The notes under the pieces are model-generated. The model was not told the origin of the DNA. It saw only the letters and a list, made by a program, of their open reading frames with translations, and searched no databases. A stretch of 64,000 bases of DNA. Source: Candidatus Zixiibacteriota bacterium. GTDB taxonomy: Bacteria > Zixibacteria > MSB-5A5 > GN15 > JAAZOE01. Below, in pieces: positions 36,988 to 55,450 of the stretch; the stretch's first letter is position 1, and the number at the start of each line of letters is the position of its first letter. The stretch is from positions 141,892 to 205,891 of the forward strand of contig JAZGGI010000003.1 of NCBI GenBank assembly GCA_036480375.1, read 5' to 3'. A program made the position numbers and the translations under genes.

Positions 36988-38709
36988 TTATGATAATTGT
37001 GTAATTGATTCATGTCCTTGATTATCCATTTCGGCATTGAGATTCGCCTTATCGTATTTTTTGAGATATAGACAAAACTCGGTACCCAATCCGAGCTCGG
37101 ATGATGCCTCAACACGCCCTTCCATCGCGTCGGCCAGGCGTGAGACTATTGATAACCCGAGTCCGGAGCCGGATTTTTTTGTAGAATGAAAAGGCATAAA
37201 GACCTTCCCCAGTTGCTCAAAAGGAATGCCCGGCCCGGTATCTCGAACGGATAATTTTATTTCTCCGTTATCCAATTCGGCATCCGTTTCAATTTGAACG
37301 CTGCCCCCGGAATCACCTATGGCTTCGAATGCATTTACTAGAAGATTTATCAGCATCTGCTTTAAGTAGTCTTCATCCCCGGAAATGTAAACTACATTTT
37401 CATGCGAAATGGGCCGGATGCGAATATTATTTCTATAAGACGGGTGACGACGAGCTACTTCAATCACTTCCGAAATAAGCCCGAGAATCTCTACCTTTCG
37501 CAATTCAAGGCGATTGATACATGCGTAGAGAAGAAAGTCGGAAAGGATTTTGTTCAGCCGGGTTGATTCCTTGATAATTAATGAAAGCAGTTTATCATTA
37601 TCGCCCTCAAGATATAAAGAATTCTTGAGAACCTCCACCGATCCGGAGATTGATGCCAGGGGATTTCTAATCTCATGAGCAATGCAGGCCGACAATTCAC
37701 CGATGGCGGCCATTTTATCGGCCTGCCTTATTCTTTGCTCAAACATTTTCGCTTCGGTTAAATCCTGAAAGATGGCAATCACTCCGCGCGTATCAAATTT
37801 CTCATCATAAAGAGTCGAGGTCGATAAACCGATCGGGACCTCTGTGCTGTCGCCGCGTTTTATAACAAATTCAGAACGCGACAATCGTTGCTGGGAATTC
37901 AGGACAGCCATTAGATTTTCGCTGAGAGGTGTCAATTGATTTACGAAAATTCCACGACAATGCTTTCCGGAAACTTCCGCTTCACTCAATCCCAAAATTG
38001 ATTCGGCGGTTCGATTAAAATAGACGATTTCACCATCCTGATCAATCGTTACCAAACCACAATTCAAATGCCAGAGAATATCCCCGGTTTCCAGTCTTGC
38101 CTTTTTGAGGGCAGCCGAAGCCGAGTCGAGCTCAATACCCTTGGATTGCAGCTTTTCGGCGAGATACCCGGCAATAAAGGCAACCAGGTAGAATATCAAA
38201 ATATGCAAAAAGGTGGAATAAAAATGCGCGTCATCGGCATTAAAAAAACTCCCGCCCAACGGTTGCGAAAACAGGTTTTCCTGAACCGGAAGATTTATAT
38301 TTATCCCGGTGACAAAAGCAAAAGTAAGACTTGCGCAAGTAGCGATTAACAACGTTCCGACCAGGCGATAGACCATGGCCGACGAAACGATCGTAAGTAA
38401 AAACAGTATTGAAAACGGCGAATAGAGACTCCCCGTCGAATATACAATGCCCGCCTCATTGACGATTTCAGCCACAAACGTCAGCGCGATTAGAACCCGA
38501 AACAGCAGTCGATAGTCGGTACGGCGCAGGAATACCTGGGAAATCAAAGCCGCCAGGGTAACGAAGCAATACAAATAAAATGAAGTCTGAGTATATGAAG
38601 GAAACCCAAGCCATCCAACGATAGCCCAGAATATAAGGCAAAAATTCATCAGCCGCAACGGCGCAAACCAGCCAACATTAATCCCGGGATATGTCTGTGA
38701 TAGACTCAT
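36988..38709 (-). CDS. PilS-like sensor histidine kinase (polytopic N-terminus, PAS, HisKA, HATPase)
   Basis: About 6 TM segments, a PAS segment, H-box CIAHEIRNPLASISGS, N/G boxes (NLLVNAFEA, DTGPGI, GSGLGLS). Lies directly downstream of pilC. No response regulator is adjacent. Confidence 0.8.
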   Translation of the reverse strand: MSLSQTYPGINVGWFAPLRLMNFCLIFWAIVGWLGFPSYTQTSFYLYCFVTLAALISQVFLRRTDYRLLFRVLIALTFVAEIVNEAGIVYSTGSLYSPFSILFLLTIVSSAMVYRLVGTLLIATCASLTFAFVTGININLPVQENLFSQPLGGSFFNADDAHFYSTFLHILIFYLVAFIAGYLAEKLQSKGIELDSASAALKKARLETGDILWHLNCGLVTIDQDGEIVYFNRTAESILGLSEAEVSGKHCRGIFVNQLTPLSENLMAVLNSQQRLSRSEFVIKRGDSTEVPIGLSTSTLYDEKFDTRGVIAIFQDLTEAKMFEQRIRQADKMAAIGELSACIAHEIRNPLASISGSVEVLKNSLYLEGDNDKLLSLIIKESTRLNKILSDFLLYACINRLELRKVEILGLISEVIEVARRHPSYRNNIRIRPISHENVVYISGDEDYLKQMLINLLVNAFEAIGDSGGSVQIETDAELDNGEIKLSVRDTGPGIPFEQLGKVFMPFHSTKKSGSGLGLSIVSRLADAMEGRVEASSELGLGTEFCLYLKKYDKANLNAEMDNQGHESITQLS

Positions 38710-38745: not shown

Positions 38746-39942
38746 TTAGATTTTTCCTATGATGTCGAACATCGGTAAATACATCGCAATCAAAATACCG
38801 CCAATAATAATACCCATAAATACAATTACCACTGGTTCAATAATCGATGTCAGAGCCGTCACCGCGGCGTCCACTTCCTCGTCATAAAAATCGGCAATCT
38901 TGTTTAACATCTCATCCAATCCGCCCGTTTTTTCACCGACTGAAATCATCTGCGTTACCATCGGAGGAAATACGCCGGTTTCCTTCAAAGGAGCGGTAAT
39001 TGTATCACCTTCGGCAATGGATAAGACTGATTTTTTGATAGCGTCATGAATTACTCTATTTCCGGCCGTTTTGGCGGTAATATCAAGCGCTTCCAGGATC
39101 GAAACACCGGATGAGAGCAAGGTTCCCAGGGTTCTCGAAAACCTTGAAATCGCTGATTTCTTGAGAAGTGTACCCAAAATGGGAAACGCCAGAAAAACCT
39201 TATCGGTATTATACCTGCCTTTGGGCGTTTTGACGTAAAGCTTATAGCCGACAATAAGAGCGATTATGGCGCCTATAATATGCATAAACCTTGTTTCCAG
39301 AAAATTCGATATTCCCAAAATGACTTGAGTCGGTCCCGGCAATTCCGACCCGAGACCTTCAAACATTTTGGCAAACACGGGTACGACGAAAGTCAGCATA
39401 GCGATCGTAACACCGGTCGCCACGACGCTGATAACGATCGGATACATCATCGCCCCGCGAACCTTGCGTATCAAGGCATCGGCTTTTTCACGATAAACCG
39501 CCAGCCTGACGAGAATCACATCAAGAGCGCCGCCCATCTCGCCCGCTTCAACCATATTGGTATATAGCTGATCGAATACTTTGGGATGACGGGCCAAAGC
39601 GTCAGACAAAGTTGTGCCGCCCTGCACCGATTCCTTTACTTTATTTAACACTTTGCGCAGTTCAACCGAATCGACCTGAGAAGCAAGAATCTCCAGACAT
39701 TGAATCATCGGCAAGCCGGCACCGATCATGGTCGCGAATTGACGAGTAAAGCGGGAAATATCCTGCTTTTTTATTCCGGTACCGAATTTGATCGCTATAT
39801 CCGCCGGTTTTTTGCGAATACTGGAAACAAGTATTCTATTCTGCCTGAGAACTCTTTCCATATCCTGCTGATTCTTAGCCTTTAGCGTACCGCTGACCTG
39901 GGCTCCGGCCAATGTCTTACCTTTATATTCAAATTCCGGCAT
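38746..39942 (-). CDS. pilC: type IV pilus assembly platform protein PilC (GspF family)
   Basis: Two T2SSF repeats, three TM segments, about 400 aa. Start MPEFEYKGKTLAGAQVSGTLKA is typical. Confidence 0.92.
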   Translation of the reverse strand: MPEFEYKGKTLAGAQVSGTLKAKNQQDMERVLRQNRILVSSIRKKPADIAIKFGTGIKKQDISRFTRQFATMIGAGLPMIQCLEILASQVDSVELRKVLNKVKESVQGGTTLSDALARHPKVFDQLYTNMVEAGEMGGALDVILVRLAVYREKADALIRKVRGAMMYPIVISVVATGVTIAMLTFVVPVFAKMFEGLGSELPGPTQVILGISNFLETRFMHIIGAIIALIVGYKLYVKTPKGRYNTDKVFLAFPILGTLLKKSAISRFSRTLGTLLSSGVSILEALDITAKTAGNRVIHDAIKKSVLSIAEGDTITAPLKETGVFPPMVTQMISVGEKTGGLDEMLNKIADFYDEEVDAAVTALTSIIEPVVIVFMGIIIGGILIAMYLPMFDIIGKI

Positions 39943-39954
39943 ACAATTTACTCC

Positions 39955-41031
39955 TTACGCAAACGCGGGCGACGGTTGTCTGGATAAAAGCTCATTCAAT
40001 TCCTGCGGATTGGAACTGCGTCCCGTCGCGTCATTCATGGTTATTTTCCCCGTACGATATAATTCGGCCAGAGACATATTCATCGTGCGCATCCCATACT
40101 TCTGCCCTGACTGAATCATACTATATATTTGATGAATCTTATCGTCGCGAATAATGGCCCGGATGGCGGGCGTACATACCATCACTTCCAATGCCAGCGC
40201 TCGCCCGCCGCCCATGCGGGGGATTAATTGCTGGGCAACAACCGCCTGCAGTGTGAACGATAAGGTAACCCGAATCTGTTCCTGTTGATTGGTCGGGAAT
40301 ACATCGATAATGCGGTTTATTGATTCGGCGGCCGAGTTGGTATGCAGAGTCGCGAATGCGAGATGGCCGGTTTCTGAAATATTCAAAGCCGCCTCGATTG
40401 TTTCCAGATCTCTCATTTCACCGACAAGAACAACATCGGGATCTTCACGCAAAGCGTATTTTAACGCCGACGCGAACGATGGCGTATCGCTGAATACCTC
40501 TCTTTGATTTACAAGACAGTTATTATGCCGATGCAAATATTCAATCGGATCTTCAACAGTCAAAATATGTTCATGCCGCTCACGATTAATCTTGTCAATA
40601 ATAGCAGCCAATGTAGTCGATTTGCCCGAACCGGTCGGACCGGTTACGAGAACCAAACCGCGCGGTAAATTCGCCATTTCGGAAACTACTTTCGGCAATC
40701 CCAGTTCTTCAAAAGTTTTTATCTTAAATGGAATTTGCCTTATGGCCACGGCAATGTTTCCCCGTTGACGAAAAACATTGCAACGAAATCGACTCAAACT
40801 CTCAAGGCCAAACGACAAATCCAGCTCATTGTTTTCTTCGAATTTTTTCCGCTGTTTCTCATTCATGATGCTATAAGCCAGCTTCAAAGTCATTTCAGCA
40901 GTCAAAACTTCATGCTCGGTCCGAACCAAATTTCCATCAATTCTGGTCATAGGCGGAATCCCAACCGTAAGATGCAAATCGGAGGCCCCCTTCTTAACCA
41001 TTTCCTGGAGAAGATCTCTCAAGGTTACCAT
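39955..41031 (-). CDS. pilT: type IV pilus retraction ATPase PilT
   Basis: Walker A GPTGSGKSTT, Asp box, the AIRAIIRDDKIHQI PilT motif. About 358 aa. Confidence 0.93.
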   Translation of the reverse strand: MVTLRDLLQEMVKKGASDLHLTVGIPPMTRIDGNLVRTEHEVLTAEMTLKLAYSIMNEKQRKKFEENNELDLSFGLESLSRFRCNVFRQRGNIAVAIRQIPFKIKTFEELGLPKVVSEMANLPRGLVLVTGPTGSGKSTTLAAIIDKINRERHEHILTVEDPIEYLHRHNNCLVNQREVFSDTPSFASALKYALREDPDVVLVGEMRDLETIEAALNISETGHLAFATLHTNSAAESINRIIDVFPTNQQEQIRVTLSFTLQAVVAQQLIPRMGGGRALALEVMVCTPAIRAIIRDDKIHQIYSMIQSGQKYGMRTMNMSLAELYRTGKITMNDATGRSSNPQELNELLSRQPSPAFA

Positions 41032-41261: not shown

Positions 41262-42959
41262 TTACGTACCCGTCACGGCGAAGACTTCTTTGAGACTGAT
41301 CAAGCCGTTCATCATCTTATCAAGCGCGGCCATACGCAATGTCAGCATGCCCTCTTCAATAGCCTCGTTTCGAATTTGAACATCGGTGGCATTTTTCAGT
41401 ATTAAATCTTCAATTGCCGCCGAAACCGGCATAACTTCGAAAATACCGGCTCGACCCGATTGACCGGTGCCGTTACAATCATTGCAGCCGGGCGATTCAA
41501 AAACATCCCGGGTTGTGATGCAGCTCTCGGGAACGTCGAGGTTCTGAATATCTTCATCGGTGAGAGTATATTCTCTCTTGCAATTGAGACATAATTTTCT
41601 CGTCATACGCTGAGCCATAATCAACCGCGTTGCCGAAGATACCAGATAGTTGGGTATGCCCATATCGATAAGTCGATTTATCGATGAGGGCGCGTCGTTG
41701 GTATGCAGGGTCGAAAATACAAGGTGTCCGGTTAGCGCCGCGCGGATGGCGATCTCGGCCGTCTCACCATCTCGAATCTCACCGACCATGATTACGTCGG
41801 GGTCCTGTCGCAGGAAAGACCGTAGCGCTCTGGCGAACGTCAGACCAATATCCGATTTGACGGCTATCTGATTAATTCCGTCGAAGTTAAACTCCACCGG
41901 GTCTTCGGCGGTCATGATATTAATATCTTCAGTATTGATCTGTTTCAAAGCCGAATATAGCGTCGTCGTCTTACCGGAACCGGTCGGCCCGGTTACCAGA
42001 ATAATCCCGAACGGTAGATGAATAGCGTTATCGAATCGTTTCAGCGAATATTCGGTAAATCCGAGCCTGGTCATATCGACCATCAAAGCCTGCGGATCCA
42101 AAATTCGCATAACCACCTTCTCGCCAAAAATGGTCGGCAACACCGAAACACGCAGGTCAACGGTGCGATTATCGAGTTTAATTTTGATGCGTCCGTCCTG
42201 GGGCAAACGCCGTTCGGAAATATCCAGCTCCGACATGATTTTTATACGAGATATAATCGCCGCCCGGTATTTGAACGGCAGCGGATCCATCTCCTTAAGG
42301 TTACCATCGATTCGATAGCGAACGCGAATCCGTCTTTCGTACATTTCGATATGAATATCGGATGCCCCGGTACGGACCGCTTCTTTGATAATTGAATCAA
42401 CCAGGCGAACCAACGGCTTGTCCTGAACCGCCGACTGCAAATCGCTTTCGCTGAGCTCGTCCTCGGAAACGGAAACGACTTCGAGTTCTTCTTCATCTTC
42501 AAGACCTTTGAGGATTTCGCTAACCCCGCTATCCGAACGATAATATTTTTCAATTGCCTTGTTGATGGAATTTTCGGGAGAAATAACCGGCTGTACATTG
42601 CATCCGGTGATAAATTTAATGGCGTCAAGGACATAAACATTATTAGGGTCGGCAATGGCGACGATGAGAGTTTTCTTGAGCTTTGAAACGGCGATAACAT
42701 TAAATTTCCGGGCAATATCACTGGGAATCAGGGCAACAATTTCAGGGTTTAACTCTACGTCAGCGAGACGTAATGACCCCATATTCAATTGCTTGCTGAT
42801 AAAATCGGAAAGCTCTTCCTCGCTGCCAATAGCTCCCACTTTGACGAGAGCTTCGCCAAAATGTTCCTTATTTTGCTCTTTCATGGCCAGCGCTTTTTCC
42901 AATTGATCTTCGGAAATTTTGCCGGCCTTTACCAGCATGGCTCCTAATTCAGCGGACAT
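41262..42959 (-). CDS. pilB: type IV pilus extension ATPase PilB (GspE family)
   Basis: T2SSE_N repeats at the N-terminus (LGAMLVKAGKISEDQLEKALAMKEQ...FGEALVKVGAI). Walker A GPTGSGKTTT. Tetracysteine motif CLNC...CNDCNGTG. Confidence 0.92.
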   Translation of the reverse strand: MSAELGAMLVKAGKISEDQLEKALAMKEQNKEHFGEALVKVGAIGSEEELSDFISKQLNMGSLRLADVELNPEIVALIPSDIARKFNVIAVSKLKKTLIVAIADPNNVYVLDAIKFITGCNVQPVISPENSINKAIEKYYRSDSGVSEILKGLEDEEELEVVSVSEDELSESDLQSAVQDKPLVRLVDSIIKEAVRTGASDIHIEMYERRIRVRYRIDGNLKEMDPLPFKYRAAIISRIKIMSELDISERRLPQDGRIKIKLDNRTVDLRVSVLPTIFGEKVVMRILDPQALMVDMTRLGFTEYSLKRFDNAIHLPFGIILVTGPTGSGKTTTLYSALKQINTEDINIMTAEDPVEFNFDGINQIAVKSDIGLTFARALRSFLRQDPDVIMVGEIRDGETAEIAIRAALTGHLVFSTLHTNDAPSSINRLIDMGIPNYLVSSATRLIMAQRMTRKLCLNCKREYTLTDEDIQNLDVPESCITTRDVFESPGCNDCNGTGQSGRAGIFEVMPVSAAIEDLILKNATDVQIRNEAIEEGMLTLRMAALDKMMNGLISLKEVFAVTGT

Positions 42960-43116: not shown

Positions 43117-43605
43117 TCAATCCTTAAATATATCATCCAGCTTATCGCCCGCCGAGGCAGCAAAATCGGCTGACACTTCCGGATGCTCCTGGTGGGAACG
43201 ATCCGAAATTTGTGTAAACACTTTGGCCAACTCTTCCGATGCTTCCTTGGAGTACAGGCGGACCATACCTATTGTTGTGCGATCGTCAAAAATCACAACC
43301 ATTATCGAACGCTCGCCCACGATTGACATGTGGATATGGTCTTTCTTGCCCTGATGAAACAAGACCGAAAATTCAGATTCTCCAACCAGTCGAGCGATCT
43401 CTTTGGTTGAAGCAAACGAACCGGCCAGTAGCGCCGCCAGGGCGGTCGTATCCAGGGAGTGCGTAAATCCCTGGCGCGTGATGAGGTGGCCGTCCTTATC
43501 AACCAATAGGGCGCATTTCGCTTCCGCGCCCTTCAAAAGTTTGGTCAATAAAGAATCAATCCGCTCGATCTCTTCCTCATATAATATCAGACTATCATCA
43601 CTCAC
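43117..43605 (-). CDS. mglB: MglB (Roadblock/LC7 GTPase-activating partner of MglA)
   Basis: Collinear with my recollection of Myxococcus MglB: LYEEEIERI..., ALLVDKDGHLITRQG, DTTALAALLAGSF, FHQGKKDHIHMSIVGERSIMVVIFDDRTTIGMVRLYSKEASEEL, and an acidic C-terminal DKLDDIF. Confidence 0.88.
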   Translation of the reverse strand: MSDDSLILYEEEIERIDSLLTKLLKGAEAKCALLVDKDGHLITRQGFTHSLDTTALAALLAGSFASTKEIARLVGESEFSVLFHQGKKDHIHMSIVGERSIMVVIFDDRTTIGMVRLYSKEASEELAKVFTQISDRSHQEHPEVSADFAASAGDKLDDIFKD

Positions 43606-43621
43606 GGGAATTTCCTCCCCT

Positions 43622-44845
43622 TTATTTTAATCCAAACAATCGCTTGAAGAATGACCACTTTTGGGGTTTTTCGGTCGATTCGGCTCGCAGCGAAGGCGCC
43701 ATTTGAGGATGTGAAGACTGAACCTTTTCTTCATCCCCGATGCTCGGATTATTAGTTTCGGCTTTGGTTATTTCTAATTTATCACTTTTCGTTTGACGCG
43801 TTACTTTCATTCGTTCTTCATCTTCCGTCGTATTGCCCGGGAACGGCCTGTAAGCGGGCTTGGGAGGCGGAGCTTTTTCTATATTTTGCTCCACCGGCTC
43901 GCGCTGAAATTCAACGGGCTGTTCCGGGGATTCGGGCACGGGCGGCACAACCGTCTGCTGCGTGACCTGCTCCAATGGAACCGACGTATTATGAGTCATA
44001 GACGCGGCCGGAGCGACCGGCTGGGGTATCGGGTGGACAGGTTTTTCAGGAACGATGGAGGCCGGCGCTGGTGCTGGTTGAGCAATCGGTTCCGGAGGCG
44101 GTTGAACAGGCCCGGATTGAGGTAACGGGGCCGGCTGTGCCTGAGGCTGAGGAATCGGCGGAGGCGGTGATTGAGGAATAGCTTGAGGCTGAAGAGCCGA
44201 TGCGGCGTTTGCCTTAGGTTGAGCCGGGGCTGCGGCAGGTTGGCTGGGCTGGGTGCCTGCTCCAGCTGATTTGGCCTTATCCAATACCAACTTCAAAATA
44301 CACTTCAGGGTGTCAAAGACGCCAAAACCTTCTGTCGCCGAAGCACAAAATTCAGGCCAGTTGCAGGCATTTAGAGCGGCATGAAGCTCTTCTGCGCTTA
44401 ACACTCCGGGTAAGTCCTGTTTATTATATTGAATGACAAACGGCATTTCATCGATCTTGAAATCGTATTCGGCCAGGTTTTCCTTAAGATTATTCAGTGA
44501 TTCGATATTTTCATCCAGTTTATCCGGTTGCGAATCGGCCACAAAAACAACTCCGTCAGCACCGCGTAAGACGAGCTTTCTGGTGGCATTGTAATAAACC
44601 TGTCCAGGTACCGTATAGAGCTGAAATTTGGCGTCAAAACCGTTTATCTTTCCAATATTAATTGGTAGGAAATCAAAATACAAAGTCCGGTCAGAGTCCG
44701 TTGCCAGCGAAATCAACTTACCCTTCGTATCAGACGGCACCTTGGCATGCACATATTGCAAATTTGTCGTTTTACCCGATAAACCGGGACCGTAATAGAC
44801 GATTTTACAGCTAACTTCTCTCGATGCGTAATTTATTGATACCAT
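43622..44845 (-). CDS. mglA: MglA-type Ras-like GTPase with Pro/Gln-rich C-terminal extension and terminal amphipathic helix
   Basis: The first ~195 aa are near-collinear with MglA (INYASREVSCKIVYYGPGLSGKTTNLQYV...TDRTLYFDFLP...YTVPGQVYYNATRKL...VFVADSQ...QYNKQDL). A ~210-aa low-complexity P/Q/A tail follows and ends in KWSFFKRLFGLK. Confidence 0.9.
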   Translation of the reverse strand: MVSINYASREVSCKIVYYGPGLSGKTTNLQYVHAKVPSDTKGKLISLATDSDRTLYFDFLPINIGKINGFDAKFQLYTVPGQVYYNATRKLVLRGADGVVFVADSQPDKLDENIESLNNLKENLAEYDFKIDEMPFVIQYNKQDLPGVLSAEELHAALNACNWPEFCASATEGFGVFDTLKCILKLVLDKAKSAGAGTQPSQPAAAPAQPKANAASALQPQAIPQSPPPPIPQPQAQPAPLPQSGPVQPPPEPIAQPAPAPASIVPEKPVHPIPQPVAPAASMTHNTSVPLEQVTQQTVVPPVPESPEQPVEFQREPVEQNIEKAPPPKPAYRPFPGNTTEDEERMKVTRQTKSDKLEITKAETNNPSIGDEEKVQSSHPQMAPSLRAESTEKPQKWSFFKRLFGLK

Positions 44846-44855
44846 GTATCTTCTC

Positions 44856-45206
44856 TTAGTAAACTGCTTCCTGATTATTTAATTTACTTATCGCGTTTTT
44901 GATTTCCAGCCGGACTAATCCAATATTGACTTCCGGCTCAGTAATAACTACCAAAACACCCATTTCCACTTCACTGAAAAATAACTTGGCGTTGTCAGCT
45001 TCAACCGTAACCTGCTTCAAGGGCGGCGACTGGAGCCGATCAAGCGATTTTTGCACATTGGAAATAACCGACGCAGCCAGGGCGCCGATCGCATCCTCTT
45101 CAATTTGAGTGTTGAGGTCGGCCGCGATAACAATTCCATCGTTACCAACAACCATACTGCCGATTATTCCGCTCGTCTTGTTTAGTCCCTCAAGAATTTG
45201 ATACAT
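44856..45206 (-). CDS. stand-alone Roadblock/LC7 domain protein (MglC-like paralog)
   Basis: GIIGSMVVGNDGIVIAADL...AIGALAASVISNV...GVLVVITEPEVNIGLVRLEIKNAI fits the Roadblock pattern. The internal ATG at 45206 is preferred over 45251 because it gives less overlap with the upstream gene. Confidence 0.75.
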   Translation of the reverse strand: MYQILEGLNKTSGIIGSMVVGNDGIVIAADLNTQIEEDAIGALAASVISNVQKSLDRLQSPPLKQVTVEADNAKLFFSEVEMGVLVVITEPEVNIGLVRLEIKNAISKLNNQEAVY

Positions 45207-46158
45207 ATTGATCCTCCACCCTGACAAACAAAGCCGGGCTGTATCGTTCATTGATATATTTTCTGATCATATCCGCAGCCTGAGCCATTCGAATATGAAT
45301 GGTCTCATCTATATTTTCTTCAGTCATAACCATCAAGATAAATCTCTCTATCCGACGCATAATAATACGCTTATTATTTGTCGTGATATCCAGCTTACTG
45401 GGATTTCCTACCGGACTAAAGTGATTCAATAATCTTCGATTTTCATTTTCAATAATGATCGCGGCCGGAGCCCACAATTCTATATCTTCATCACAGCGAC
45501 TAAAATTAGCCAGAGTAAGACCTTCTTCATCTATAAGGAGCGACATCTTAACCGCGGCTGATTCTCCGATATACTGCACAGCCCTCTCCAGTTGATTATC
45601 GCCATCCGCTTGTGGGGTCGATGTAACTTCAAATATCTGCTTATCGGTCTCCATTTCACTGAAACTTTGCGACTGTAAAGGGGCAATAGGCTCGGTGATT
45701 TCAGAGGAAACAGTCTCTTTCTCTTCAATATGAGGTTCAAAAACGAATTTTTTCGGCCTTTCAGGATTCAAACTGGATGCTAAATGCAAATACGCCGGGC
45801 GTAAAACAAAAGGAGCTGAAACTACATGAAGTATTATGGCCGGTAAATATTTGCCCATTCCGAGAGAAAAAGCAACCGAGCTATCGAGTCCATACATTAT
45901 TATAATAGCCAGGCCAAACGCTGCCCCCAATCCCATCCGAAACACCATTGTTAGCGCCGAACCAATCAGAATAGTTATCAGCGGAATCTCTCTGCGGAAG
46001 GAATATAAAACGAAACCGTAGAACGCCATCTCATAGAGCATATATAAGGCCGAAGCCGATAATAACGGCAATCCCAATTTATTGGGGAAAATAACCATCG
46101 GTATCACTACCAAAATCAGCGATGCGAGCAGTATAAGACTTTTAATATTCTTTTCCAT
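45190..46158 (-). CDS. polytopic membrane protein with C-terminal Roadblock/LC7-like domain
   Basis: The N-terminal ~130 aa has 4-5 TM helices. A linker follows, then AVKMSLLIDEEGLTLANFS...NKRIIMRRIERFILMVMTEENIDETIHIRMAQAADMI, which has Roadblock-like topology. Confidence 0.65.
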   Translation of the reverse strand: MEKNIKSLILLASLILVVIPMVIFPNKLGLPLLSASALYMLYEMAFYGFVLYSFRREIPLITILIGSALTMVFRMGLGAAFGLAIIIMYGLDSSVAFSLGMGKYLPAIILHVVSAPFVLRPAYLHLASSLNPERPKKFVFEPHIEEKETVSSEITEPIAPLQSQSFSEMETDKQIFEVTSTPQADGDNQLERAVQYIGESAAVKMSLLIDEEGLTLANFSRCDEDIELWAPAAIIIENENRRLLNHFSPVGNPSKLDITTNNKRIIMRRIERFILMVMTEENIDETIHIRMAQAADMIRKYINERYSPALFVRVEDQYVSNS

Positions 46159-46173
46159 AACAGATCCTTTTGA

Positions 46174-47079
46174 TTACTGCGTCAGCCGTGGCAACAAATT
46201 AGTCAGTTTCATCTTAAGAGAACCGAGATTAATCGATTCGGTACATACTATTGCAAGTAATTTACCCTTTATGCCGGCCATATAATACAAGGATTTGGGT
46301 GTTTCTATCATCATTGATTGTAATTGCCCAAATCCGCCTTCTCGTATTTGAATAGTCGTAAACCGCGCCGTTTCAACAGCAAGGGCTCCGACCAAATCCG
46401 TATCGCCCGACACATTCCAAATCGATTCAATGACCAGACCGTCACTATTTATTATCAATACTCCCTCGATCCCGGGCGTCTCAACCAGGGCTCTCAACAT
46501 TTGCTTATAGTTCATATCGGCCTGAACCGGAGGAGCCTCTTGAGTTATTGTCTGTACCGGAGCCGGATGGTCGCGCTCTTGAGGTGTCGGTGAAATCCTT
46601 ACCGTAGGGGCTTGTGGAGCAGGCGCAACATGATTTGCATCCGGTTGATTTGGTTGTTCAAGGGGTATTTTCCGGGCAATTTCAAGCAGCTTCTTAATAT
46701 GCACATTTTCCGGATCACCCTCATGAAGCTTTTCCAGAAGGCGGCAGGCCTTATTAAACTCATTCTTATAAATAAATATTTCGGAAAGAAGCAATTCGGT
46801 AGTTCGGGTTTCGCCGTCAAGTTCCACTGCCCGCACCGCTTCAGTCTCGGCCCAATCGTACATCCCCTTATCCATGTTAATTTTCGCCATTACCAGATGA
46901 GCGGAACCATAATCGGGGTGGATTTTCAAACCATTCTGGCAAATGCGAAAGGCCTTATCAAGATCACCCTTTTTGCGATGAGCTTCCGCTAAAGCGGCGA
47001 AAATCTGTGAGCCGGGATTTTCATCCAATATCTTAGTACATTTGGCGATCCGTTCATCAATATTTGACCGATCAATCAT
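46174..47079 (-). CDS. TPR repeat protein with C-terminal Roadblock/LC7 domain
   Basis: About 3 TPRs (FAALAEAHRKKGDLDKAFRICQNGLKIHPDYGSAHLVMAKINMDKGMYDWAE...). A P/Q linker follows, then GIEGVLIINSDGLVIES...LVGALAVE...GKLLAIVCTESINLGSLKMKL. Confidence 0.72.
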   Translation of the reverse strand: MIDRSNIDERIAKCTKILDENPGSQIFAALAEAHRKKGDLDKAFRICQNGLKIHPDYGSAHLVMAKINMDKGMYDWAETEAVRAVELDGETRTTELLLSEIFIYKNEFNKACRLLEKLHEGDPENVHIKKLLEIARKIPLEQPNQPDANHVAPAPQAPTVRISPTPQERDHPAPVQTITQEAPPVQADMNYKQMLRALVETPGIEGVLIINSDGLVIESIWNVSGDTDLVGALAVETARFTTIQIREGGFGQLQSMMIETPKSLYYMAGIKGKLLAIVCTESINLGSLKMKLTNLLPRLTQ

Positions 47080-47171
47080 TATTATGATCCATCCAAAATT
47101 TTAATACCTTTGTTTAGCGCATATCCAATCGATAATAGCCTATGGCCTCATTCGAGTCAAACAAAAATACC

Positions 47172-47537
47172 CTAACCCAAAACGCGGCGGGCGTGCATAA
47201 GTCCGATGAGCCATAATATCACTGTTCCGACATATAGTATTCCGGCTATATCGAAAGTTAATGTGAACAACTTGAGTTCCTGAGCCAGGATTAACACCTG
47301 ACCTGCTGTCAGCGTAATGAATGAAATTATCCACATTTGACAGCCTTTAGCCAGAGCTCCCCCCTTGACCAATCCAAATAGTTTTATCGCTACTGACAGG
47401 CAGGCTAAGGCGCCTATCAGAATCACGATATTGATGATGGCCGGTATGCTTCCCAAAACATTAAAATCGGCGGCAAACGCCGATTCGGCCATAATCATCG
47501 TCAACGGCAATATCCCAAGTCCAGGTTTATACTTCAT
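47172..47537 (-). CDS. small membrane protein (hypothetical; signal peptide + 3 TM)
   Basis: Hydrophobicity pattern only. ATGA start/stop overlap with the upstream DUF4388 gene suggests co-translation. Confidence 0.55.
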   Translation of the reverse strand: MKYKPGLGILPLTMIMAESAFAADFNVLGSIPAIINIVILIGALACLSVAIKLFGLVKGGALAKGCQMWIISFITLTAGQVLILAQELKLFTLTFDIAGILYVGTVILWLIGLMHARRVLG

Positions 47538-48745
47538 GAGTCACCCGATATCATTTTTATGGTTCTCTCCGCTTTTCTGATGGAATAGTAGAAATTATCA
47601 TCAAGACGGAATTTCTTTACAAGTTCTCTTCGCATAGCCAATGGTTCGGAAATTTCTTTTTTGACTTTCCCAACCGCGTTGCGAAAGGCTCCGTGTCCAA
47701 ATTGCATAAATATATATTCAAGCTGTTCATGCAACATATCTTCCAGCATGGATAGAAGTCGGTGCATCCGTACCTTTTCCGGGATTTTCTTAACTTCCTG
47801 TAAAAATCTCTCCAGCGACGGCCCCGATTCGGTATTTATATCACACCCGGGGAAAAACACCAATAATCCTTGTCTGAAGCTTGATATAAATTTGTTATAC
47901 CCGGGATTGGTCGTCCCGACTACTTCCTCAATTACCTTGCGGGTCCTCAGAAAACAAGTGTTGTAGAGTCTAAAGATAATTCCCAAAATTATTTCTTCTT
48001 CATCCTCATCCGGTCCGATATTATCATTGGCGGTTTTACCGGCCCCCTCGACGAGCGAATTCAAAATGAGTCGATACAATGCCCGGCAGGTAGGAAATTC
48101 ACCTATCGGAGAAGCCTCGATTATTTCCGGTAACGTTCGTTCTCCGCTTATCAACGTCAATATTTTAAACTCATCGAGGGATAAAGTAATCTCATCTGAA
48201 TTAACTTTAGGAATTAGGCGCACTCGCAAAAGAATATTATTGGGCGGGAGAACTTTTTGTATTTCGAGCCATTCGTCGATCCTCCGCGTGCCTTCCATGA
48301 TGATATTCATAGTTGACAAATTAACCAGGAATGAGGCGTTTTGCGGAGATTCCCCTTCAGCGAATGAAAAATCGCCCTCGACCCAGCTGAAAAGATTATA
48401 GACAATTTCCTCGATCTGCATTTGCAGGCATTCGGAAACTTCATCCTTATCAAACAGCTGCATATCTATAAGAGTAGCTCCCAGGGCTCGGCCGGAAGAT
48501 TTATGGAGTGCGATCGCGCGTTCTAAATCTTTCTTATTGATTTTGCCACGCTTTAATAGCAAATTTCCAAGAAGATCTTCATTCGCGTTTACCGAAGAAG
48601 CGTATATAATATTGCCTTCCGAGAACGCGATTTCTTTTTTGCGCGACCCCGTCATTACTGTTAGTACACCTGTTTTTTTTCCGGTAGACAGCAATTGCAG
48701 TACATCGGAAAACGATACCGTCTTTAGGTTGCCTGTTAGTCCCAT
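47534..48745 (-). CDS. DUF4388 (PATAN-like) domain protein
   Basis: The N-terminus GNLKTVSFSDVLQLLSTGKKTGVLTV...IAFSEGNIIYASS...LLGNLLLKRGKI...LFSWVEGDFSF matches the DUF4388 pattern. The C-terminal ~270 aa has no motif I recognise. Confidence 0.72.
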   Translation of the reverse strand: MGLTGNLKTVSFSDVLQLLSTGKKTGVLTVMTGSRKKEIAFSEGNIIYASSVNANEDLLGNLLLKRGKINKKDLERAIALHKSSGRALGATLIDMQLFDKDEVSECLQMQIEEIVYNLFSWVEGDFSFAEGESPQNASFLVNLSTMNIIMEGTRRIDEWLEIQKVLPPNNILLRVRLIPKVNSDEITLSLDEFKILTLISGERTLPEIIEASPIGEFPTCRALYRLILNSLVEGAGKTANDNIGPDEDEEEIILGIIFRLYNTCFLRTRKVIEEVVGTTNPGYNKFISSFRQGLLVFFPGCDINTESGPSLERFLQEVKKIPEKVRMHRLLSMLEDMLHEQLEYIFMQFGHGAFRNAVGKVKKEISEPLAMRRELVKKFRLDDNFYYSIRKAERTIKMISGDS

Positions 48746-54451: not shown

Positions 54452-55300
54452 TTAATTGTTAAAAACGAAAACCTTCCCGAAATAATATGTCGTGCGATCA
54501 GCTTTCATCCTCATCTCTATCAGTTCCTTCAAAAATGACTCTTTATCTTCCGCTCCGACCTTTTCTCTCAGTATCGCCAGCGAATAATCAATGCCCAGGA
54601 TCCTGTCCGGTGAATCCACGCGTACAATACCTCTCGGGAGCAATACTCCCTTTTGAGCAAATTCGGATAATTCATCTATACTGAAGCAGATTGGAAAGAT
54701 TACCGCTGATGCCTTGGGGAATTCCTTAAATTGCCGGCGATGATTATACTCCAACCTCGCCCGATAGCTTTTATTGCTCCAGGCAATGTCCTCGCAAAGC
54801 TTACAATAGACATCGGCTCGAACCCAGAATGATTCCGAGACAAATCTTAACCTGACAACTCGATCGTCCCGAAACCGAAACTCGGCTTCATCGCGACGTA
54901 ATTTACCGGTTGTGTCCGTGATTATCTTAATCTGCCGCGGAAATCTCTCGCAAAACTTAACCAAATCTACATAATGCCAGCCTTCGACCACCTTTTGCCA
55001 GGGGTAAATCGATACTTTATCTTTGCTTGCGATTTGAACCGGCACATGATCTACATTCAGCGCATTTAACACTTTTAGTGCGCAGGAATCATCCAGGAGC
55101 AGAAATCTATCTTTCATTGGATATACCAAAAGAGGATTTCTGAGATTTCCCAGTAATTTCAGCTCGTGTACTTGTCGGTTAGCGTGTTCGTCGGAAAAAT
55201 TCTCGAACGCCGTAATCTGCTCAATCGAAATAATTTTCAAAGTGTCTATCATGCCTGAATCCTGTTTTAAATTACTATTTGAATCCATTTGAGCAAACAC
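54452..55300 (-). CDS. ParB/sulfiredoxin-fold protein, SbnI / free-serine-kinase-like, degenerate DGxHR motif
   Basis: LGNLRNPLLVYPMKDRFLLLDDSCALKVLNALNVDHVPVQI parallels the SbnI-type hPILV...yxViDGvHRxxxLxxLGxxxVPVQ segment as I recall it. The start could be the internal ATG at 55252. Confidence 0.45.
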   Translation of the reverse strand: MFAQMDSNSNLKQDSGMIDTLKIISIEQITAFENFSDEHANRQVHELKLLGNLRNPLLVYPMKDRFLLLDDSCALKVLNALNVDHVPVQIASKDKVSIYPWQKVVEGWHYVDLVKFCERFPRQIKIITDTTGKLRRDEAEFRFRDDRVVRLRFVSESFWVRADVYCKLCEDIAWSNKSYRARLEYNHRRQFKEFPKASAVIFPICFSIDELSEFAQKGVLLPRGIVRVDSPDRILGIDYSLAILREKVGAEDKESFLKELIEMRMKADRTTYYFGKVFVFNN

Positions 55301-55420
55301 AATGCCGTAAATTGACTCAATAAGACAGAAAGCGCTTCAGTATAAAAAGATTTTCACCGTTACCTATCAAGGATTTACAAACAGAAAGCTATCGTTCGAA
55401 TCTACCCGGGATTTGAAGCA

Positions 55421-55450
55421 AAAAAAAACGGCCGAAATCAGCATCGGCCC
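55421..55450 (-). terminator. rho-independent terminator
   Basis: The minus strand reads GGCCGA-8 nt-TCGGCC followed by G and T8, 34 nt beyond the stop of the 55484-56617 gene. Confidence 0.7.

What the first reader, a model, noticed from the sequence alone, without database searches (positions are those of the whole stretch)
43117..48745. Expanded MglA polarity module (1 GTPase, 4 Roadblock proteins, DUF4388, small membrane protein) fused to the type IV pilus motor operon
Seven co-oriented, tightly spaced or overlapping genes lie directly upstream of pilB. In order they are: a DUF4388 protein; a small 3-TM protein (ATGA overlap); a TPR-Roadblock fusion; a 5-TM-Roadblock fusion; a stand-alone Roadblock; MglA with a membrane-targeting tail; and canonical MglB. 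In Myxococcus the MglA switch uses one Roadblock GAP (MglB) and a Roadblock paralog (MglC), while its GEF (RomR/RomX) and TPR effector (SgmX) are encoded elsewhere. I recognise no RomR/RomX-like protein here. One small GTPase with four Roadblock-fold proteins, two of them membrane- or scaffold-anchored, recalls the architecture of eukaryotic Roadblock-based GTPase platforms such as Ragulator-Rag. My hypothesis is that the extra Roadblock proteins form a membrane-anchored scaffold or GEF/GAP-modulating complex. That complex would position or switch MglA right at the pilus motor. I am not aware of such a compact self-contained module being described.
Basis: partly seen in the sequence, partly recalled or inferred. 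Interest (0 to 1): 0.8.

Follow-up and report, generated by a model that had tools for sequence, protein, structure and literature searches.

The report
Membrane-tethered MglA module beside pilus motor

Summary
Seven co-oriented, tightly packed minus-strand genes (43117-48745) lie directly upstream of pilB-pilT-pilC-pilS. They encode:
- a PATAN/DUF4388 protein;
- a small membrane protein (signal-peptide-like N-terminus plus 3 TM segments);
- a TPR-Roadblock fusion;
- a polytopic-membrane-Roadblock fusion (Roadblock fold shown here by profile and structure);
- a 116-aa Roadblock protein;
- a bona fide MglA with a ~210-aa Pro-rich tail ending in a MinD-like amphipathic helix;
- canonical MglB.

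The block is syntenic in every Zixibacteria-type locus I examined (15 complete, 1 with a TM-less Roadblock, 1 cut by a contig end), at 30-92% protein identity. Four Roadblock domains next to mglA occur only in this lineage.

A smaller core (PATAN, TPR-Roadblock, Roadblock, MglA, MglB) recurs in Gemmatimonadota and, without the TPR-Roadblock fusion in most loci, in Planctomycetota. That core is therefore old and not tied to pilB. C-terminal membrane anchors on MglA recur in several phyla.

What is already published: PATAN-MglA/MglB linkage, 1:2 MglA:MglB systems, PATAN-PilB binding, and the Ragulator analogy for stacked Roadblock dimers. I found no description of the self-anchored MglA, the membrane-embedded Roadblock, or the 1:4 architecture.

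Verdict: new variant of a known kind. The mechanism is inferred, not shown.

The parts
47534..48745 (-). PATAN (DUF4388) protein, 403 aa. It has a PATAN beta-core with an MshEN-like alpha-helical insertion (aa ~58-110), a small helix/strand domain (aa ~190-237) and a C-terminal helical region (aa ~247-400) of unknown family. There is no receiver domain.
   Evidence: Pfam DUF4388 E=1.7e-34. NCBIfam NF053729 'c-di-GMP_motif' 42.7 bits, cut-off 38, at aa 59-110. AlphaFold model with mean pLDDT 74. Foldseek matches only the 52-residue insertion, to MshE and PilF GSPII domains, at rmsd ~1.1 A and 33% identity. The insertion fails the published strict and relaxed c-di-GMP motifs.
47172..47537 (-). 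Small membrane protein, 121 aa. It has a signal-peptide-like N-terminus (MKYK...AFA|AD) and three hydrophobic helices. The loop after the first helix carries a conserved LV(K/R)GGxL motif.
   Evidence: ATGA overlap with the PATAN gene. 12-orthologue alignment. No Pfam or NCBIfam family. Found only in Zixibacteria-type loci.
46174..47079 (-). TPR-Roadblock fusion, 301 aa. TPR repeats span aa ~3-135, a Pro-rich linker follows, and the Roadblock/LC7 domain spans aa ~190-300.
   Evidence: Pfam TPR_19, TPR_2 and TPR_14, plus Robl_LC7 at 28.0 bits, above the 23-bit cut-off. Position-equivalent TPR-Roadblock genes exist in Gemmatimonadota.
45190..46158 (-). Polytopic-membrane-Roadblock fusion, 322 aa. 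It has 4-5 TM helices (aa 2-130), a disordered linker (aa 134-186) and a cytoplasmic Roadblock domain (aa 189-318).
   Evidence: Profile-versus-PDB hits to dynein Roadblock chains at E=2.7e-4. AlphaFold model. Foldseek hits to LAMTOR2 and MglB. The family has only 211 representatives at 50% identity among 1.84 billion proteins.
44856..45206 (-). Stand-alone Roadblock/LC7 protein, 116 aa. The ORF is open up to 45251, but orthologues start at the equivalent of 45206, giving a 17-nt overlap with the upstream gene.
   Evidence: Pfam Robl_LC7 E=2.9e-11. The best PDB sequence match is an Asgard Roadblock, 7yh1, at E=2.7e-8. Position-equivalent orthologues exist in Gemmatimonadota and Planctomycetota, phmmer E=8e-5 to 8e-14.
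44261..44845 (-). MglA GTPase domain (aa 1-195). It carries the P-loop GPGLSGKT, the intrinsic arginine R53, T78/Q82 in YTVPGQ, and NKQD.
   Evidence: phmmer against M. xanthus MglA E=3.3e-79 and against T. thermophilus MglA E=7.7e-72. Residues were read from the alignments.
43661..44260 (-). MglA C-terminal linker (aa 196-395). It is Pro/Gln/Ala-rich and low-complexity, with two conserved islands: YRPFPGNT (aa ~332-339) and PQMAPSLR (aa ~380-387).
   Evidence: Alignment of 120 sequences with per-column conservation. Tails of 136-284 aa are present in all Zixibacteria-type loci.
43625..43660 (-). MglA C-terminal amphipathic membrane-targeting sequence, KWSFFKRLFGLK.
   Evidence: 119 of the 120 best homologues end in a near-identical motif, KKR(G/S)FFKRLFG(L/I)K. 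The E. coli MinD membrane-targeting sequence is KGFLKRLFGG (PMC5471200).
43117..43605 (-). MglB, 162 aa: a Roadblock-fold GAP including the C-terminal helix.
   Evidence: Pfam Robl_LC7 E=1.4e-13. phmmer against M. xanthus MglB E=1.1e-39 over residues 5-161.
41262..42959 (-). PilB, the type IVa pilus assembly ATPase (565 aa), 157 nt downstream of mglB.
   Evidence: NCBIfam TIGR02538 at 695 bits, above the 675.65-bit cut-off. Pfam T2SSE plus MshEN.
39955..41031 (-). PilT, the retraction ATPase (358 aa).
   Evidence: NCBIfam TIGR01420 at 504.6 bits.
38746..39942 (-). PilC, the platform protein (398 aa).
   Evidence: Pfam T2SSF, two copies, E=8.7e-67.
36988..38709 (-). PilS-like sensor histidine kinase (573 aa). 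It is part of the conserved downstream context.
   Evidence: Pfam 6TM_PilS, PAS, HisKA and HATPase_c. Syntenic in related loci.

Best explanation
This is the Zixibacteria version of the MglA/MglB cell-polarity switch, built as a membrane-bound module that most likely controls where and when the adjacent type IVa pilus motor (PilB/PilT/PilC) works.

Shown here:
- MglA is a canonical Group-1-type MglA with an intrinsic Arg finger and catalytic Gln.
- It is extended by a ~200-aa flexible linker and a MinD-like amphipathic helix.
- MglB is canonical.
- Three more proteins carry Roadblock domains: one fused to TPR repeats, one fused to a 4-5-helix membrane domain, and one free.
- A PATAN protein with an MshEN-like helical insertion, and a small membrane protein, complete a translationally coupled block.
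- The whole block is conserved across the phylum next to pilBTC.

Inferred:
1. The amphipathic helix keeps MglA on the inner face of the cytoplasmic membrane. Its GTP/GDP cycle then runs in two dimensions.
2. MglB acts as the GAP, as in Myxococcus and Thermus.
3. The extra Roadblock proteins form homo- or heterodimers that stack on MglB or MglA, as MglC does on MglB. The membrane-embedded one fixes this platform at a membrane site. The TPR-fused one offers a protein-docking surface, comparable in role to the TPR effector SgmX.
4. The PATAN protein is the output adaptor. It contacts the N-terminal domain of PilB and/or PilC, as cyanobacterial PATAN domains do.

The net effect would be local switching of pilus assembly for motility and/or DNA uptake.
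For: Identity of the parts.

Membrane tether:
- 119 of 120 homologues end in KKR(G/S)FFKRLFG(L/I)K.
- This is nearly the E. coli MinD membrane-targeting sequence KGFLKRLFGG.
- Independent anchors sit on MglA tails elsewhere: a hydrophobic terminal helix in three Planctomycetota loci, and amphipathic ends in a Fibrobacterota and a Deferrisomatales locus.

Selection on the whole block:
- The gene order is the same in 15 further loci, with MglA GTPase domains 69-84% identical (72-84% in the GTDB loci with the complete block), TM-Roadblock 30-82% and PATAN 31-92% identical.
- Four Roadblock domains within 6 kb of mglA occur in all 16 distinct Zixibacteria-type loci with enough sequence, and in none of the 70 other distinct loci.

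Old core: position-equivalent PATAN, TPR-Roadblock and Roadblock genes occur in Gemmatimonadota. PATAN, TPR and Roadblock genes occur in Planctomycetota.

Link to pili:
- pilB/pilT lie within 6 kb in all 17 distinct Zixibacteria-type loci.
- PATAN domains bind the PilB1 N-terminal domain and the PilC N-terminal domain, and suffice to reverse phototaxis (bioRxiv 10.1101/2021.06.11.447907).
- Two PATAN proteins were among the SgmX-associated candidate proteins listed in the M. xanthus SopA study (PMC11580455).
- The PATAN insertion and the PilB N-terminus share the same helical module.

Roadblock stacking precedent: MglC2:(MglB2)2, regulated by MglA-GTP (PMC10329633).
Against: - No interaction, localisation or enzymatic activity was measured or modelled.
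- The core module in Gemmatimonadota and Planctomycetota has no pilB within 10 kb. The pilus link may therefore be secondary.
- mglB and pilB are separated by 157 nt with GC-rich palindromes. Co-transcription is unproven.
- The simple hydrophobic-moment values of the terminal 12-mer are modest, 0.19-0.28 against 0.45 for the MinD sequence. Membrane binding rests on sequence similarity and conservation.
- The stand-alone Roadblock gave no MglC match in the PDB sequence search at E<=10. 'MglC-like' is an analogy only.
- The organism is uncultivated. Pilus-based motility in it is not documented.
Confidence: 0.6

Rival explanations
1. The module is a general membrane-site or cell-pole organiser whose primary target is not the type IV pilus. 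It could, for example, control another envelope machine, a gliding apparatus or cell division. Its position next to pilBTC in Zixibacteria would then be inherited synteny with no direct coupling.
For: - The shared core (PATAN, TPR-Roadblock, Roadblock, MglB, MglA) in 10 Gemmatimonadota loci, and the related sets in 4 Planctomycetota loci, have no pilB/pilT within 6-10 kb.
- The whole neighbourhood (S20, MurJ, ComEC ... PilS, PPIase) is syntenic in Zixibacteria. Adjacency alone is therefore weak evidence.
- There is a 157-nt gap before pilB.
Against: - PATAN domains have experimentally shown contacts with PilB and PilC.
- MglA controls type IV pili in Myxococcus, Bdellovibrio and Thermus (PMC4316618, PMC3983030).
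- pilB follows mglB in every one of 17 distinct Zixibacteria-type loci, spanning deep divergence with TM-Roadblock identity down to 30%.
Confidence: 0.2
2. The extra Roadblock proteins are a Ragulator-like exchange factor and anchor. A membrane-fixed stack of Roadblock heterodimers would load MglA with GTP, replacing RomR/RomX, rather than merely scaffolding MglB.
For: - No receiver-domain protein was found among the scanned ORFs of the window.
- The best structural matches of the membrane-anchored Roadblock are LAMTOR2 chains of Ragulator, at E~9e-8.
- Four Roadblock domains allow two heterodimers, as in Ragulator.
- Roadblock proteins can have exchange activity. MglB itself shows GEF properties (PMC13408092).
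Against: - MglB, a Streptomyces Roadblock/LC7 domain and Asgard Roadblock chains match equally well, with target TM up to 0.86. The LAMTOR2 hit reflects only the shared fold.
- MglA lacks the C-terminal Roadblock domain through which Rag GTPases dock on Ragulator.
- No activity data exist.
- RomR/RomX could be encoded elsewhere in the genome. Only 64 kb was seen.
Confidence: 0.2
3. The extra Roadblock proteins regulate the hexameric ATPases PilB/PilT directly, as generic 'NTPase regulators', independently of MglA.
For: - The Roadblock/LC7 superfamily was proposed as a family of general NTPase regulators (Koonin & Aravind 2000, as cited in PMC4316618).
- The genes lie next to pilB/pilT.
Against: - The same Roadblock paralogues sit beside mglA/mglB, without pilB, in other phyla.
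- All characterised bacterial Roadblock proteins act on MglA-type GTPases or on each other.
Confidence: 0.07
4. The arrangement is a chance juxtaposition, or the extra Roadblock genes are decaying duplicates of mglB.
For: None beyond the weak Pfam scores of two of the domains.
Against: - Intact ORFs in the same order occur in 16 further loci, with protein identities down to 30%.
- There are family-specific conserved motifs and distinct domain fusions.
- The Roadblock domain of the membrane fusion folds with high confidence.
Confidence: 0.02

Closest known systems
Myxococcus xanthus polarity module (MglA, MglB, MglC, RomR/RomX, RomY, with TPR effector SgmX)
   Same: - The MglA GTPase domain is ~61% identical and has the same catalytic residues.
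- MglB is homologous over its full length, including the C-terminal helix.
- Additional Roadblock paralogue(s) accompany MglB.
- A TPR protein is present.
- Type IV pili are the output.
- The idea of stacked Roadblock dimers controlled by the nucleotide state of MglA applies to both.
   Different: - Here MglA is 407 aa with a linker and its own amphipathic membrane anchor. Myxococcus MglA is a soluble 195-aa protein.
- There are four Roadblock domains instead of two. One is an integral membrane protein and one is fused to TPR repeats.
- No RomR-like receiver protein is found nearby.
- The stand-alone Roadblock shows no sequence match to MglC structures.
- All components are encoded in one block beside pilBTC.
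Cyanobacterial PatA-type (PATAN-REC) regulators acting on PilB1/PilC
   Same: - Both have a PATAN/DUF4388 domain with the two-hairpin helical insertion.
- Both are functionally associated with the type IV pilus extension motor.
   Different: - The protein here has no receiver domain. Instead it carries an uncharacterised ~240-aa C-terminal region.
- The presumed input is a small GTPase module rather than a chemosensory phosphorelay.
PATAN-MglA/MglB neighbourhoods and 1:2 MglA:MglB systems (Makarova et al. 2006; Wuichet & Sogaard-Andersen 2014)
   Same: - Genes for PATAN proteins lie near mglA/mglB.
- More than one MglB homologue is coupled to one Group 1 MglA.
   Different: - Those surveys report the association as occasional and list at most two MglB homologues per MglA.
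- In the parts of the 2014 paper that I read and searched, there is no mention of TPR- or membrane-fused Roadblocks, C-terminally anchored MglA, or Zixibacteria, and a search for Planctomycet* found no occurrence. Makarova 2006 was not available to me.
Eukaryotic Ragulator-Rag (LAMTOR1-5 with RagA/C)
   Same: - Several Roadblock-fold proteins are associated with a small GTPase on a membrane.
- LAMTOR2 chains are the top structural matches of the membrane-anchored Roadblock.
   Different: - Rag GTPases carry their own Roadblock domain and act as heterodimers. MglA does not.
- The anchor here is a polytopic membrane domain plus an amphipathic helix on the GTPase, not a lipidated LAMTOR1.
- The analogy has already been drawn for MglB/MglC.
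- There is no evidence of common descent beyond the shared fold.
MinD/FtsA-type C-terminal membrane-targeting sequences; hypervariable region plus lipid anchor of Ras/Rho/Rab
   Same: - The terminal motif (G/S)FFKRLFG is nearly the MinD sequence GFLKRLFG.
- The layout is GTPase domain, flexible linker, basic patch, then membrane anchor. This mirrors eukaryotic small GTPases (my own knowledge).
   Different: - It is attached to a Ras-superfamily GTPase, not a ParA/MinD ATPase.
- It uses an amphipathic helix, not prenylation.
- Whether membrane binding depends on nucleotide state is unknown.
Actinobacterial conservon (CvnA-D / Mfp)
   Same: A membrane-associated complex of an MglA-family GTPase with a Roadblock protein.
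   Different: - The conservon has a CvnA histidine-kinase-like protein and a DUF742 protein, and a Group 2 MglA lacking the arginine finger. None of these is present here.
- The only histidine kinase nearby is PilS-like.

Membership tests
MglA family, Group 1 (Ras superfamily) | Strong full-domain similarity to characterised MglA proteins | tested here: met
   E=3.3e-79 against M. xanthus MglA and 7.7e-72 against T. thermophilus MglA, over residues 3-195.
MglA family, Group 1 (Ras superfamily) | Catalytic signature: P-loop GxxxxGK(S/T), intrinsic Arg finger (R53), Thr instead of Asp in G3 with catalytic Gln (TxxGQ), and NKxD | tested here: met
   GPGLSGKT, DRTLYFDF (R53), YTVPGQ (T78, Q82) and NKQD are all invariant in the alignment with M. 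xanthus MglA.
MglA family, Group 1 (Ras superfamily) | Gene coupled to an mglB homologue (within four genes) | tested here: met
   mglB starts 16 nt downstream.
MglA family, Group 1 (Ras superfamily) | Single-domain protein of about 195 aa | tested here: not met
   The protein is 407 aa. A 212-aa C-terminal extension is conserved in 119 of 120 homologues.
MglB (Roadblock-fold GAP of MglA) | Roadblock/LC7 domain with full-length similarity to characterised MglB, including the C-terminal helix | tested here: met
   Pfam Robl_LC7 at 50.8 bits. E=1.1e-39 against M. xanthus MglB over residues 5-161. The NCBIfam Thermus-type equivalog scores 95.5 bits, below its 200-bit cut-off.
MglB (Roadblock-fold GAP of MglA) | Stimulates GTP hydrolysis by MglA | not testable with these tools
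   This needs a biochemical assay.
Roadblock/LC7 superfamily (the three extra proteins) | alpha-beta-beta-alpha-beta-beta-beta-alpha fold recognised by profile or structure | tested here: met
   - TPR fusion: Pfam 28.0 bits, above the 23-bit cut-off.
- Stand-alone protein: 43.4 bits.
- Membrane fusion: no Pfam hit, but the profile hits PDB Roadblock chains at E=2.7e-4. The model has the right topology at pLDDT >90. Foldseek gives E~1e-7 and target TM 0.72-0.86.
MglC (M. xanthus Roadblock paralogue) | Sequence similarity to MglC | tested here: not met
   The stand-alone Roadblock gave no MglC chain at E<=10 in the PDB sequence search. Its best hits are Asgard Roadblocks. The other two Roadblock proteins were not tested against MglC specifically.
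MglC (M. xanthus Roadblock paralogue) | Binds MglB (through the FDI and KRK surfaces) and RomR | not testable with these tools
   In the alignment, window MglB keeps a basic residue at two of the three KRK positions: R15 for K14, and R116 for R115. The position equivalent to K120 is E121. This was read by eye from the alignment and says nothing about binding.
PATAN / DUF4388 domain proteins | PATAN domain with the alpha-helical insertion | tested here: met
   Pfam DUF4388 E=1.7e-34, covering model positions 1-121 of 122. The insertion superposes on MshE and PilF GSPII helices at rmsd ~1.1 A.
PatA-type response regulators (PATAN-REC) | C-terminal CheY-like receiver domain | tested here: not met
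   No Response_reg hit. The C-terminal half is helical with no PDB match.
MshEN-type c-di-GMP receptor domain | 53-residue four-helix module recognised by a curated model | tested here: met
   NCBIfam NF053729 at 42.7 bits, cut-off 38. Fold match to c-di-GMP-bound PilF GSPII-B and MshE.
MshEN-type c-di-GMP receptor domain | [quoted passage not shown] | tested here: not met
   None of 30 orthologues matches even the relaxed motif. Position 1 is Leu in motif 1 and Gln or Ala in motif 2. Position 10 of motif 2 is Asn, Gln, Glu or His. The N-terminus of the adjacent PilB also fails.
Ragulator-Rag-type platform | The GTPase carries its own C-terminal Roadblock domain and docks through it | tested here: not met
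   The MglA tail is low-complexity with no Roadblock domain.
Ragulator-Rag-type platform | Roadblock proteins form heterodimers that stack into a membrane-anchored scaffold | not testable with these tools
   No multimer prediction or experiment was available. Only the fold and the membrane anchor are shown.
Actinobacterial conservon | CvnA-type kinase plus DUF742 protein plus Group 2 MglA without an arginine finger | tested here: not met
   No DUF742 or CvnA-like gene is in the block. This MglA has the arginine finger.

The most novel reading that the evidence does not exclude
Zixibacteria, and in reduced form Gemmatimonadota, Planctomycetota and Fibrobacterota, may run a fully membrane-bound small-GTPase cycle. 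MglA would be held on the membrane by a linker-plus-anchor tail that is functionally equivalent to the hypervariable region and lipid anchor of eukaryotic Ras/Rho/Rab. An integral-membrane Roadblock, together with TPR-fused and free Roadblock partners, would form a Ragulator-like stacked platform. That platform would recruit MglA, activate it (GEF) or hand it over to MglB. The PATAN protein would couple the GTP state directly to PilB/PilC. This would be a self-contained prokaryotic counterpart of eukaryotic membrane-anchored GTPase platforms, and an alternative to the RomR-based polarity circuit.
Probability: 0.25. Interest if true: 0.8.

Novelty: new variant of a known kind. Interest (0 to 1): 0.6.

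Why it matters
MglA/MglB is the best-understood prokaryotic small-GTPase polarity system. Almost all mechanistic knowledge comes from one organism, in which the components are scattered around the genome and MglA is soluble.

This locus puts a complete candidate circuit into one conserved block next to its likely target:
- the GTPase;
- the GAP;
- three Roadblock partners;
- a TPR surface;
- a PATAN adaptor;
- two membrane proteins.

It adds three features that I did not find in the papers searched:
- a MinD-like membrane anchor on MglA;
- an integral-membrane Roadblock protein;
- a 1:4 GTPase:Roadblock ratio.

It also shows that a 3-Roadblock core with PATAN is shared by at least Gemmatimonadota. 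Anchoring MglA to the membrane has arisen, or been kept, in several phyla by different means.

This makes several open questions directly testable with a small set of recombinant proteins:
- What do extra Roadblock paralogues do?
- How do PATAN domains connect to GTPase signalling?
- Do bacteria use membrane-tethered Ras-like switches as eukaryotes do?

Tried and rejected
1. The first genome-contig scan, with the single TM-Roadblock protein, found no relatives. I replaced it with a scan using an MglA alignment.
I redid it with database homologues of 59-92% identity. That limits alignment depth, and mean pLDDT is only 74.
3. I considered c-di-GMP sensing by the PATAN insertion because of the NCBIfam hit. 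I rejected it as an inference, because both the strict and the relaxed published motifs fail in all 30 orthologues. It remains possible experimentally.
4. I considered assigning the stand-alone Roadblock to MglC and dropped it, because there is no sequence match.
5. Promoter and terminator scans did not resolve whether pilB is co-transcribed. Counts were within the shuffle expectation.
6. Hydrophobic-moment arithmetic on the terminal 12-mer gave unremarkable values. I did not use it as support.
7. Literature searches for Zixibacteria plus MglA returned nothing. Searches for a membrane-targeting or tail-anchored MglA returned nothing relevant. Makarova et al. 2006 is not held in the library.
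8. A conservon-type system, and chance juxtaposition, were both considered and rejected (see the membership tests and rival explanations).
9. Cluster look-ups gave no organism names for the deeper-branching homologues. The phylum assignment of MAGs titled Ignavibacteria or Terriglobales that carry the full block therefore stays unresolved.

Full report
**1. What is in the sequence**

The window has 41-48% G+C per 2-kb window and a long run of minus-strand genes. Between 43117 and 48745, seven minus-strand ORFs follow each other with spacings of -4, 92, 15, -17 (after correcting one start), 10 and 16 nt. Downstream, after a 157-nt gap, come:
- pilB (TIGR02538, 695 bits);
- pilT, after a further 230 nt;
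- pilC;
- a PilS-like histidine kinase;
- a tandem PPIase.

Upstream lie comEC, murJ and, on the other strand, rpsT. Homologues carry names such as 'candidate division Zixibacteria'. Exact copies of two window proteins are deposited from a 221,912-bp Zixibacteria MAG contig.

**2. The seven proteins**

- **(i) PATAN protein, 403 aa.** Pfam DUF4388 E=1.7e-34. Its helical insertion (aa 59-110) passes the NCBIfam 'c-di-GMP_motif, MshE-related' model. In the AlphaFold model (mean pLDDT 74) it superposes on c-di-GMP-bound PilF GSPII-B and MshE at about 1.1 A and 33% identity. Nothing else in the protein has a PDB match. Neither the strict nor the relaxed c-di-GMP motif of Wang et al. 2016 (PMC5013675) is satisfied in any of 30 orthologues. 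I therefore do not infer c-di-GMP binding.
- **(ii) Small membrane protein, 121 aa.** It has a signal-peptide-like N-terminus and three hydrophobic helices. A conserved LV(K/R)GGxL loop is shared by 12 orthologues. It has no known family.
- **(iii) TPR-Roadblock fusion, 301 aa.** Robl_LC7 scores 28.0 bits, above the gathering cut-off.
- **(iv) Membrane-Roadblock protein, 322 aa.** It has no Pfam hit. A 26-sequence profile finds dynein Roadblock/LC7 chains and, more weakly, LAMTOR2 in the PDB. The model has four long helices and one short helix (aa 2-130), a disordered linker, and a Roadblock-topology domain at pLDDT >90. That domain matches LAMTOR2, MglB, a Streptomyces Roadblock/LC7 domain and Asgard Roadblocks at E~1e-7.
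- **(v) Stand-alone Roadblock, 116 aa.** Robl_LC7 E=2.9e-11. The long ORF start at 45251 is probably spurious, because orthologues are 111-118 aa.
- **(vi) MglA, 407 aa.** The first 195 residues match M. xanthus MglA at E=3e-79. The P-loop, R53, T78/Q82 and NKQD are conserved.
- **(vii) MglB, 162 aa.** It matches M. xanthus MglB at E=1e-39 through the C-terminal helix.

**3. The MglA tail**

Residues 196-407 are Pro/Gln/Ala-rich. Across 120 homologues they vary in sequence and length, except for two islands (YRPFPGNT and PQMAPSLR) and the extreme C-terminus.

Among the 120 best database homologues (332-421 aa apart from one shorter sequence), 119 end in KKR(G/S)FFKRLFG(L/I)K or a near variant. 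The E. coli MinD membrane-targeting sequence is KGFLKRLFGG (PMC5471200). It is, in my view, the most distinctive single feature of the locus.

**4. Conservation and distribution**

Look-ups of five MglA homologues (50-58% overall identity) all returned the same gene order: rpsT, murJ, comEC, PATAN, small TM, TPR(-Roadblock), TM-Roadblock, Roadblock, MglA, MglB, pilB, pilT, pilC, pilS.

A scan of one genome per GTDB species, using an MglA alignment that included the M. xanthus sequence, returned 80 loci from many phyla. I called ORFs in all loci and searched them with HMMs built from the window's domains. The results:

| Group | Loci | Arrangement |
|---|---|---|
| (A) Zixibacteria-type | 15 further loci complete; L017 has a 148-aa TM-less third Roadblock; L015 is cut by the contig end | Full block |
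| (B) Gemmatimonadota | 10 loci | Large TPR protein, PATAN(+TPR), TPR-Roadblock, Roadblock, MglB, short MglA, and usually a second PATAN protein downstream. No pilB within 10 kb. Pfam confirmed for L056 |
| (C) Planctomycetota | 4 loci | 1050-aa PATAN-TPR-PEGA-beta-propeller protein (in three of the four loci), TPR protein (a TPR-Roadblock fusion in L026), Roadblock, long MglA, MglB (for L060) |
| (D) Fibrobacterota | - | TPR, PATAN, long MglA, MglB |
| (E) Myxococcota, Desulfuromonadota and others | - | Only mglB-mglA |

The number of Roadblock domains within 6 kb of mglA over 86 distinct loci was:

| Roadblock domains | Loci |
|---|---|
| 0 | 6 |
| 1 | 49 |
| 2 | 3 |
| 3 | 12 |
| 4 | 16 |

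All sixteen loci with four domains are of the Zixibacteria type.

The stand-alone Roadblock has position-equivalent orthologues in groups B and C (phmmer E=8e-5 to 8e-14). The TM-Roadblock and the small membrane protein are confined to group A. An exhaustive profile search of 1.84 billion representatives found only 211 relatives of the TM-Roadblock. Some match only the Roadblock half.

MglA tails with anchors recur elsewhere:
- a terminal hydrophobic helix in three Planctomycetota loci;
- ...GFFAWLFGKR in a Fibrobacterota locus;
- ...KKGLLSRMFGGGG in a Deferrisomatales locus.

Caveat: six GTDB representatives carrying the full block are titled Ignavibacteria or Terriglobales. Because even the housekeeping synteny is identical, I suspect labelling or binning. 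I could not resolve this.

**5. What is known**

- Wuichet & Sogaard-Andersen 2014 report that some Group 1 and Group 5 mglA genes lie near PATAN genes (citing Makarova 2006). [quoted passage not shown]
- Han et al. [quoted passage not shown] They note that the PATAN insertion resembles the start of the PilB N1 domain.
- In M. xanthus, two PATAN proteins were among the SgmX-associated candidate proteins listed in the SopA study.
- Carreira et al. 2023 show an MglC2:(MglB2)2 stack that MglA-GTP breaks. They explicitly compare it with Ragulator-Rag.
- Dinet et al. 2026 report that RomR/RomX is an effector rather than a GEF, and that MglB has both GAP and GEF properties.
- Searches for Zixibacteria plus MglA, and for a membrane-targeted or tail-anchored MglA, returned nothing relevant.

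**6. Most likely mechanism**

Shown: the identity of the parts, the anchor motif, the conservation and the synteny.

Inferred:
- MglA is held at the cytoplasmic membrane by its amphipathic helix on a long flexible linker.
- MglB is its GAP.
- The three other Roadblock domains form dimers that stack with MglB and/or MglA, by analogy with MglC. The membrane-embedded one provides a fixed site, and the TPR fusion provides a docking surface.
- The PATAN protein links the module to PilB/PilC.
- The two conserved islands in the tail are candidate docking motifs.

I put about 0.6 on this general picture. I put much less on any specific pairing.

**7. Rivals**

1. The module is a general membrane or pole organiser, and the pilBTC adjacency is lineage synteny (0.2). 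This is supported by the pil-less core in other phyla. PATAN-PilB biology and the invariable adjacency in Zixibacteria argue against it.
2. The extra Roadblocks act as a Ragulator-like GEF and anchor (0.2, overlapping with the best explanation). This could not be tested here.
3. The Roadblocks regulate PilB/PilT directly (0.07).
4. Chance juxtaposition or gene decay (0.02). Conservation refutes this.

**8. Novelty and verdict**

The kind of system (MglA/MglB polarity module, PATAN association, multiple Roadblocks, Ragulator analogy) is known. New, as far as the searched literature shows:
- the 1:4 architecture;
- the integral-membrane and TPR-fused Roadblocks;
- the MinD-like anchor on MglA, and other anchors elsewhere;
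- the cross-phylum 3-Roadblock core with PATAN;
- the fixed position beside pilBTC in a whole phylum.

I rate it a new variant of a known kind, with interest 0.6. It remains clearly above ordinary because the locus offers a compact, testable system.

Noticed in passing
L060, L067, L083 (Planctomycetota), L041 (Fibrobacterota), L038 (Deferrisomatales): the mglA gene at about position 10001 in L060, L067, L083 and L041, and at 5799-6908 in L038: MglA homologues outside Zixibacteria also carry long C-terminal tails ending in membrane anchors of different kinds. Three Planctomycetota loci have a ~20-residue hydrophobic helix (tail-anchor-like). L041 ends in ...QKRKGFFAWLFGKR and L038 in ...PRKKGLLSRMFGGGG. 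This suggests that membrane tethering of MglA is recurrent.
   Followed up: partly
L022, L034, L048, L056, L057, L063, L066, L069, L076, L087 (Gemmatimonadota), roughly 4-14 kb in each locus: A conserved module of a large TPR protein, PATAN+TPR, TPR-Roadblock, Roadblock, MglB and short MglA, usually with a second ~540-aa PATAN protein 2 kb downstream. That makes three Roadblocks and two PATAN proteins per MglA, with no pilB nearby.
   Followed up: partly
window 47534-48745 (aa 58-110) and window 41262-42959 (aa 5-57): Both the PATAN insertion and the PilB N-terminus pass the NCBIfam MshE-related c-di-GMP motif model. Both lack the Arg/Lys at motif position 1 and fail the published relaxed motif. 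They share a fold, but c-di-GMP binding is doubtful for both.
   Followed up: yes
window 43661-44260 (MglA aa ~332-339 and ~380-387): Two short conserved islands, YRPFPGNT and PQMAPSLR, sit in an otherwise variable Pro-rich tail. They are possible docking motifs. They are present in many but not all Zixibacteria-type loci, and absent from the tails in other phyla.
   Followed up: partly
L017 3377-3823: In one deep-branching relative, the third Roadblock is a 148-aa soluble protein without the membrane domain. Several 130-150-aa database proteins match only the Roadblock half of the family profile. The membrane domain may therefore be a later fusion, or may have been lost in some lineages.
   Followed up: partly
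window 36988-38709: A PilS-like histidine kinase (6TM_PilS, PAS, HisKA, HATPase_c) follows pilC, with no response-regulator gene next to it. The next gene is a tandem PPIase. This arrangement is conserved in related loci.
   Followed up: no
window 2456-5113 and 11184-13763: Two large secreted-type peptidases (M28 and M6 families) each end in a dockerin type I domain.
   Followed up: no
window 54452-60064: Several sizeable ORFs have no Pfam family at E<=1e-5: 282 aa, 377 aa and 173 aa on the minus strand, and 858 aa on the plus strand (57488-60064).
   Followed up: no
L010, L011, L013, L015, L016, L018: GTDB-representative MAGs titled Ignavibacteria, Ignavibacterium or Terriglobales carry the complete Zixibacteria-type block, including the rpsT-murJ-comEC synteny. 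This is probably a taxonomic label or binning problem rather than cross-phylum distribution.
   Followed up: no
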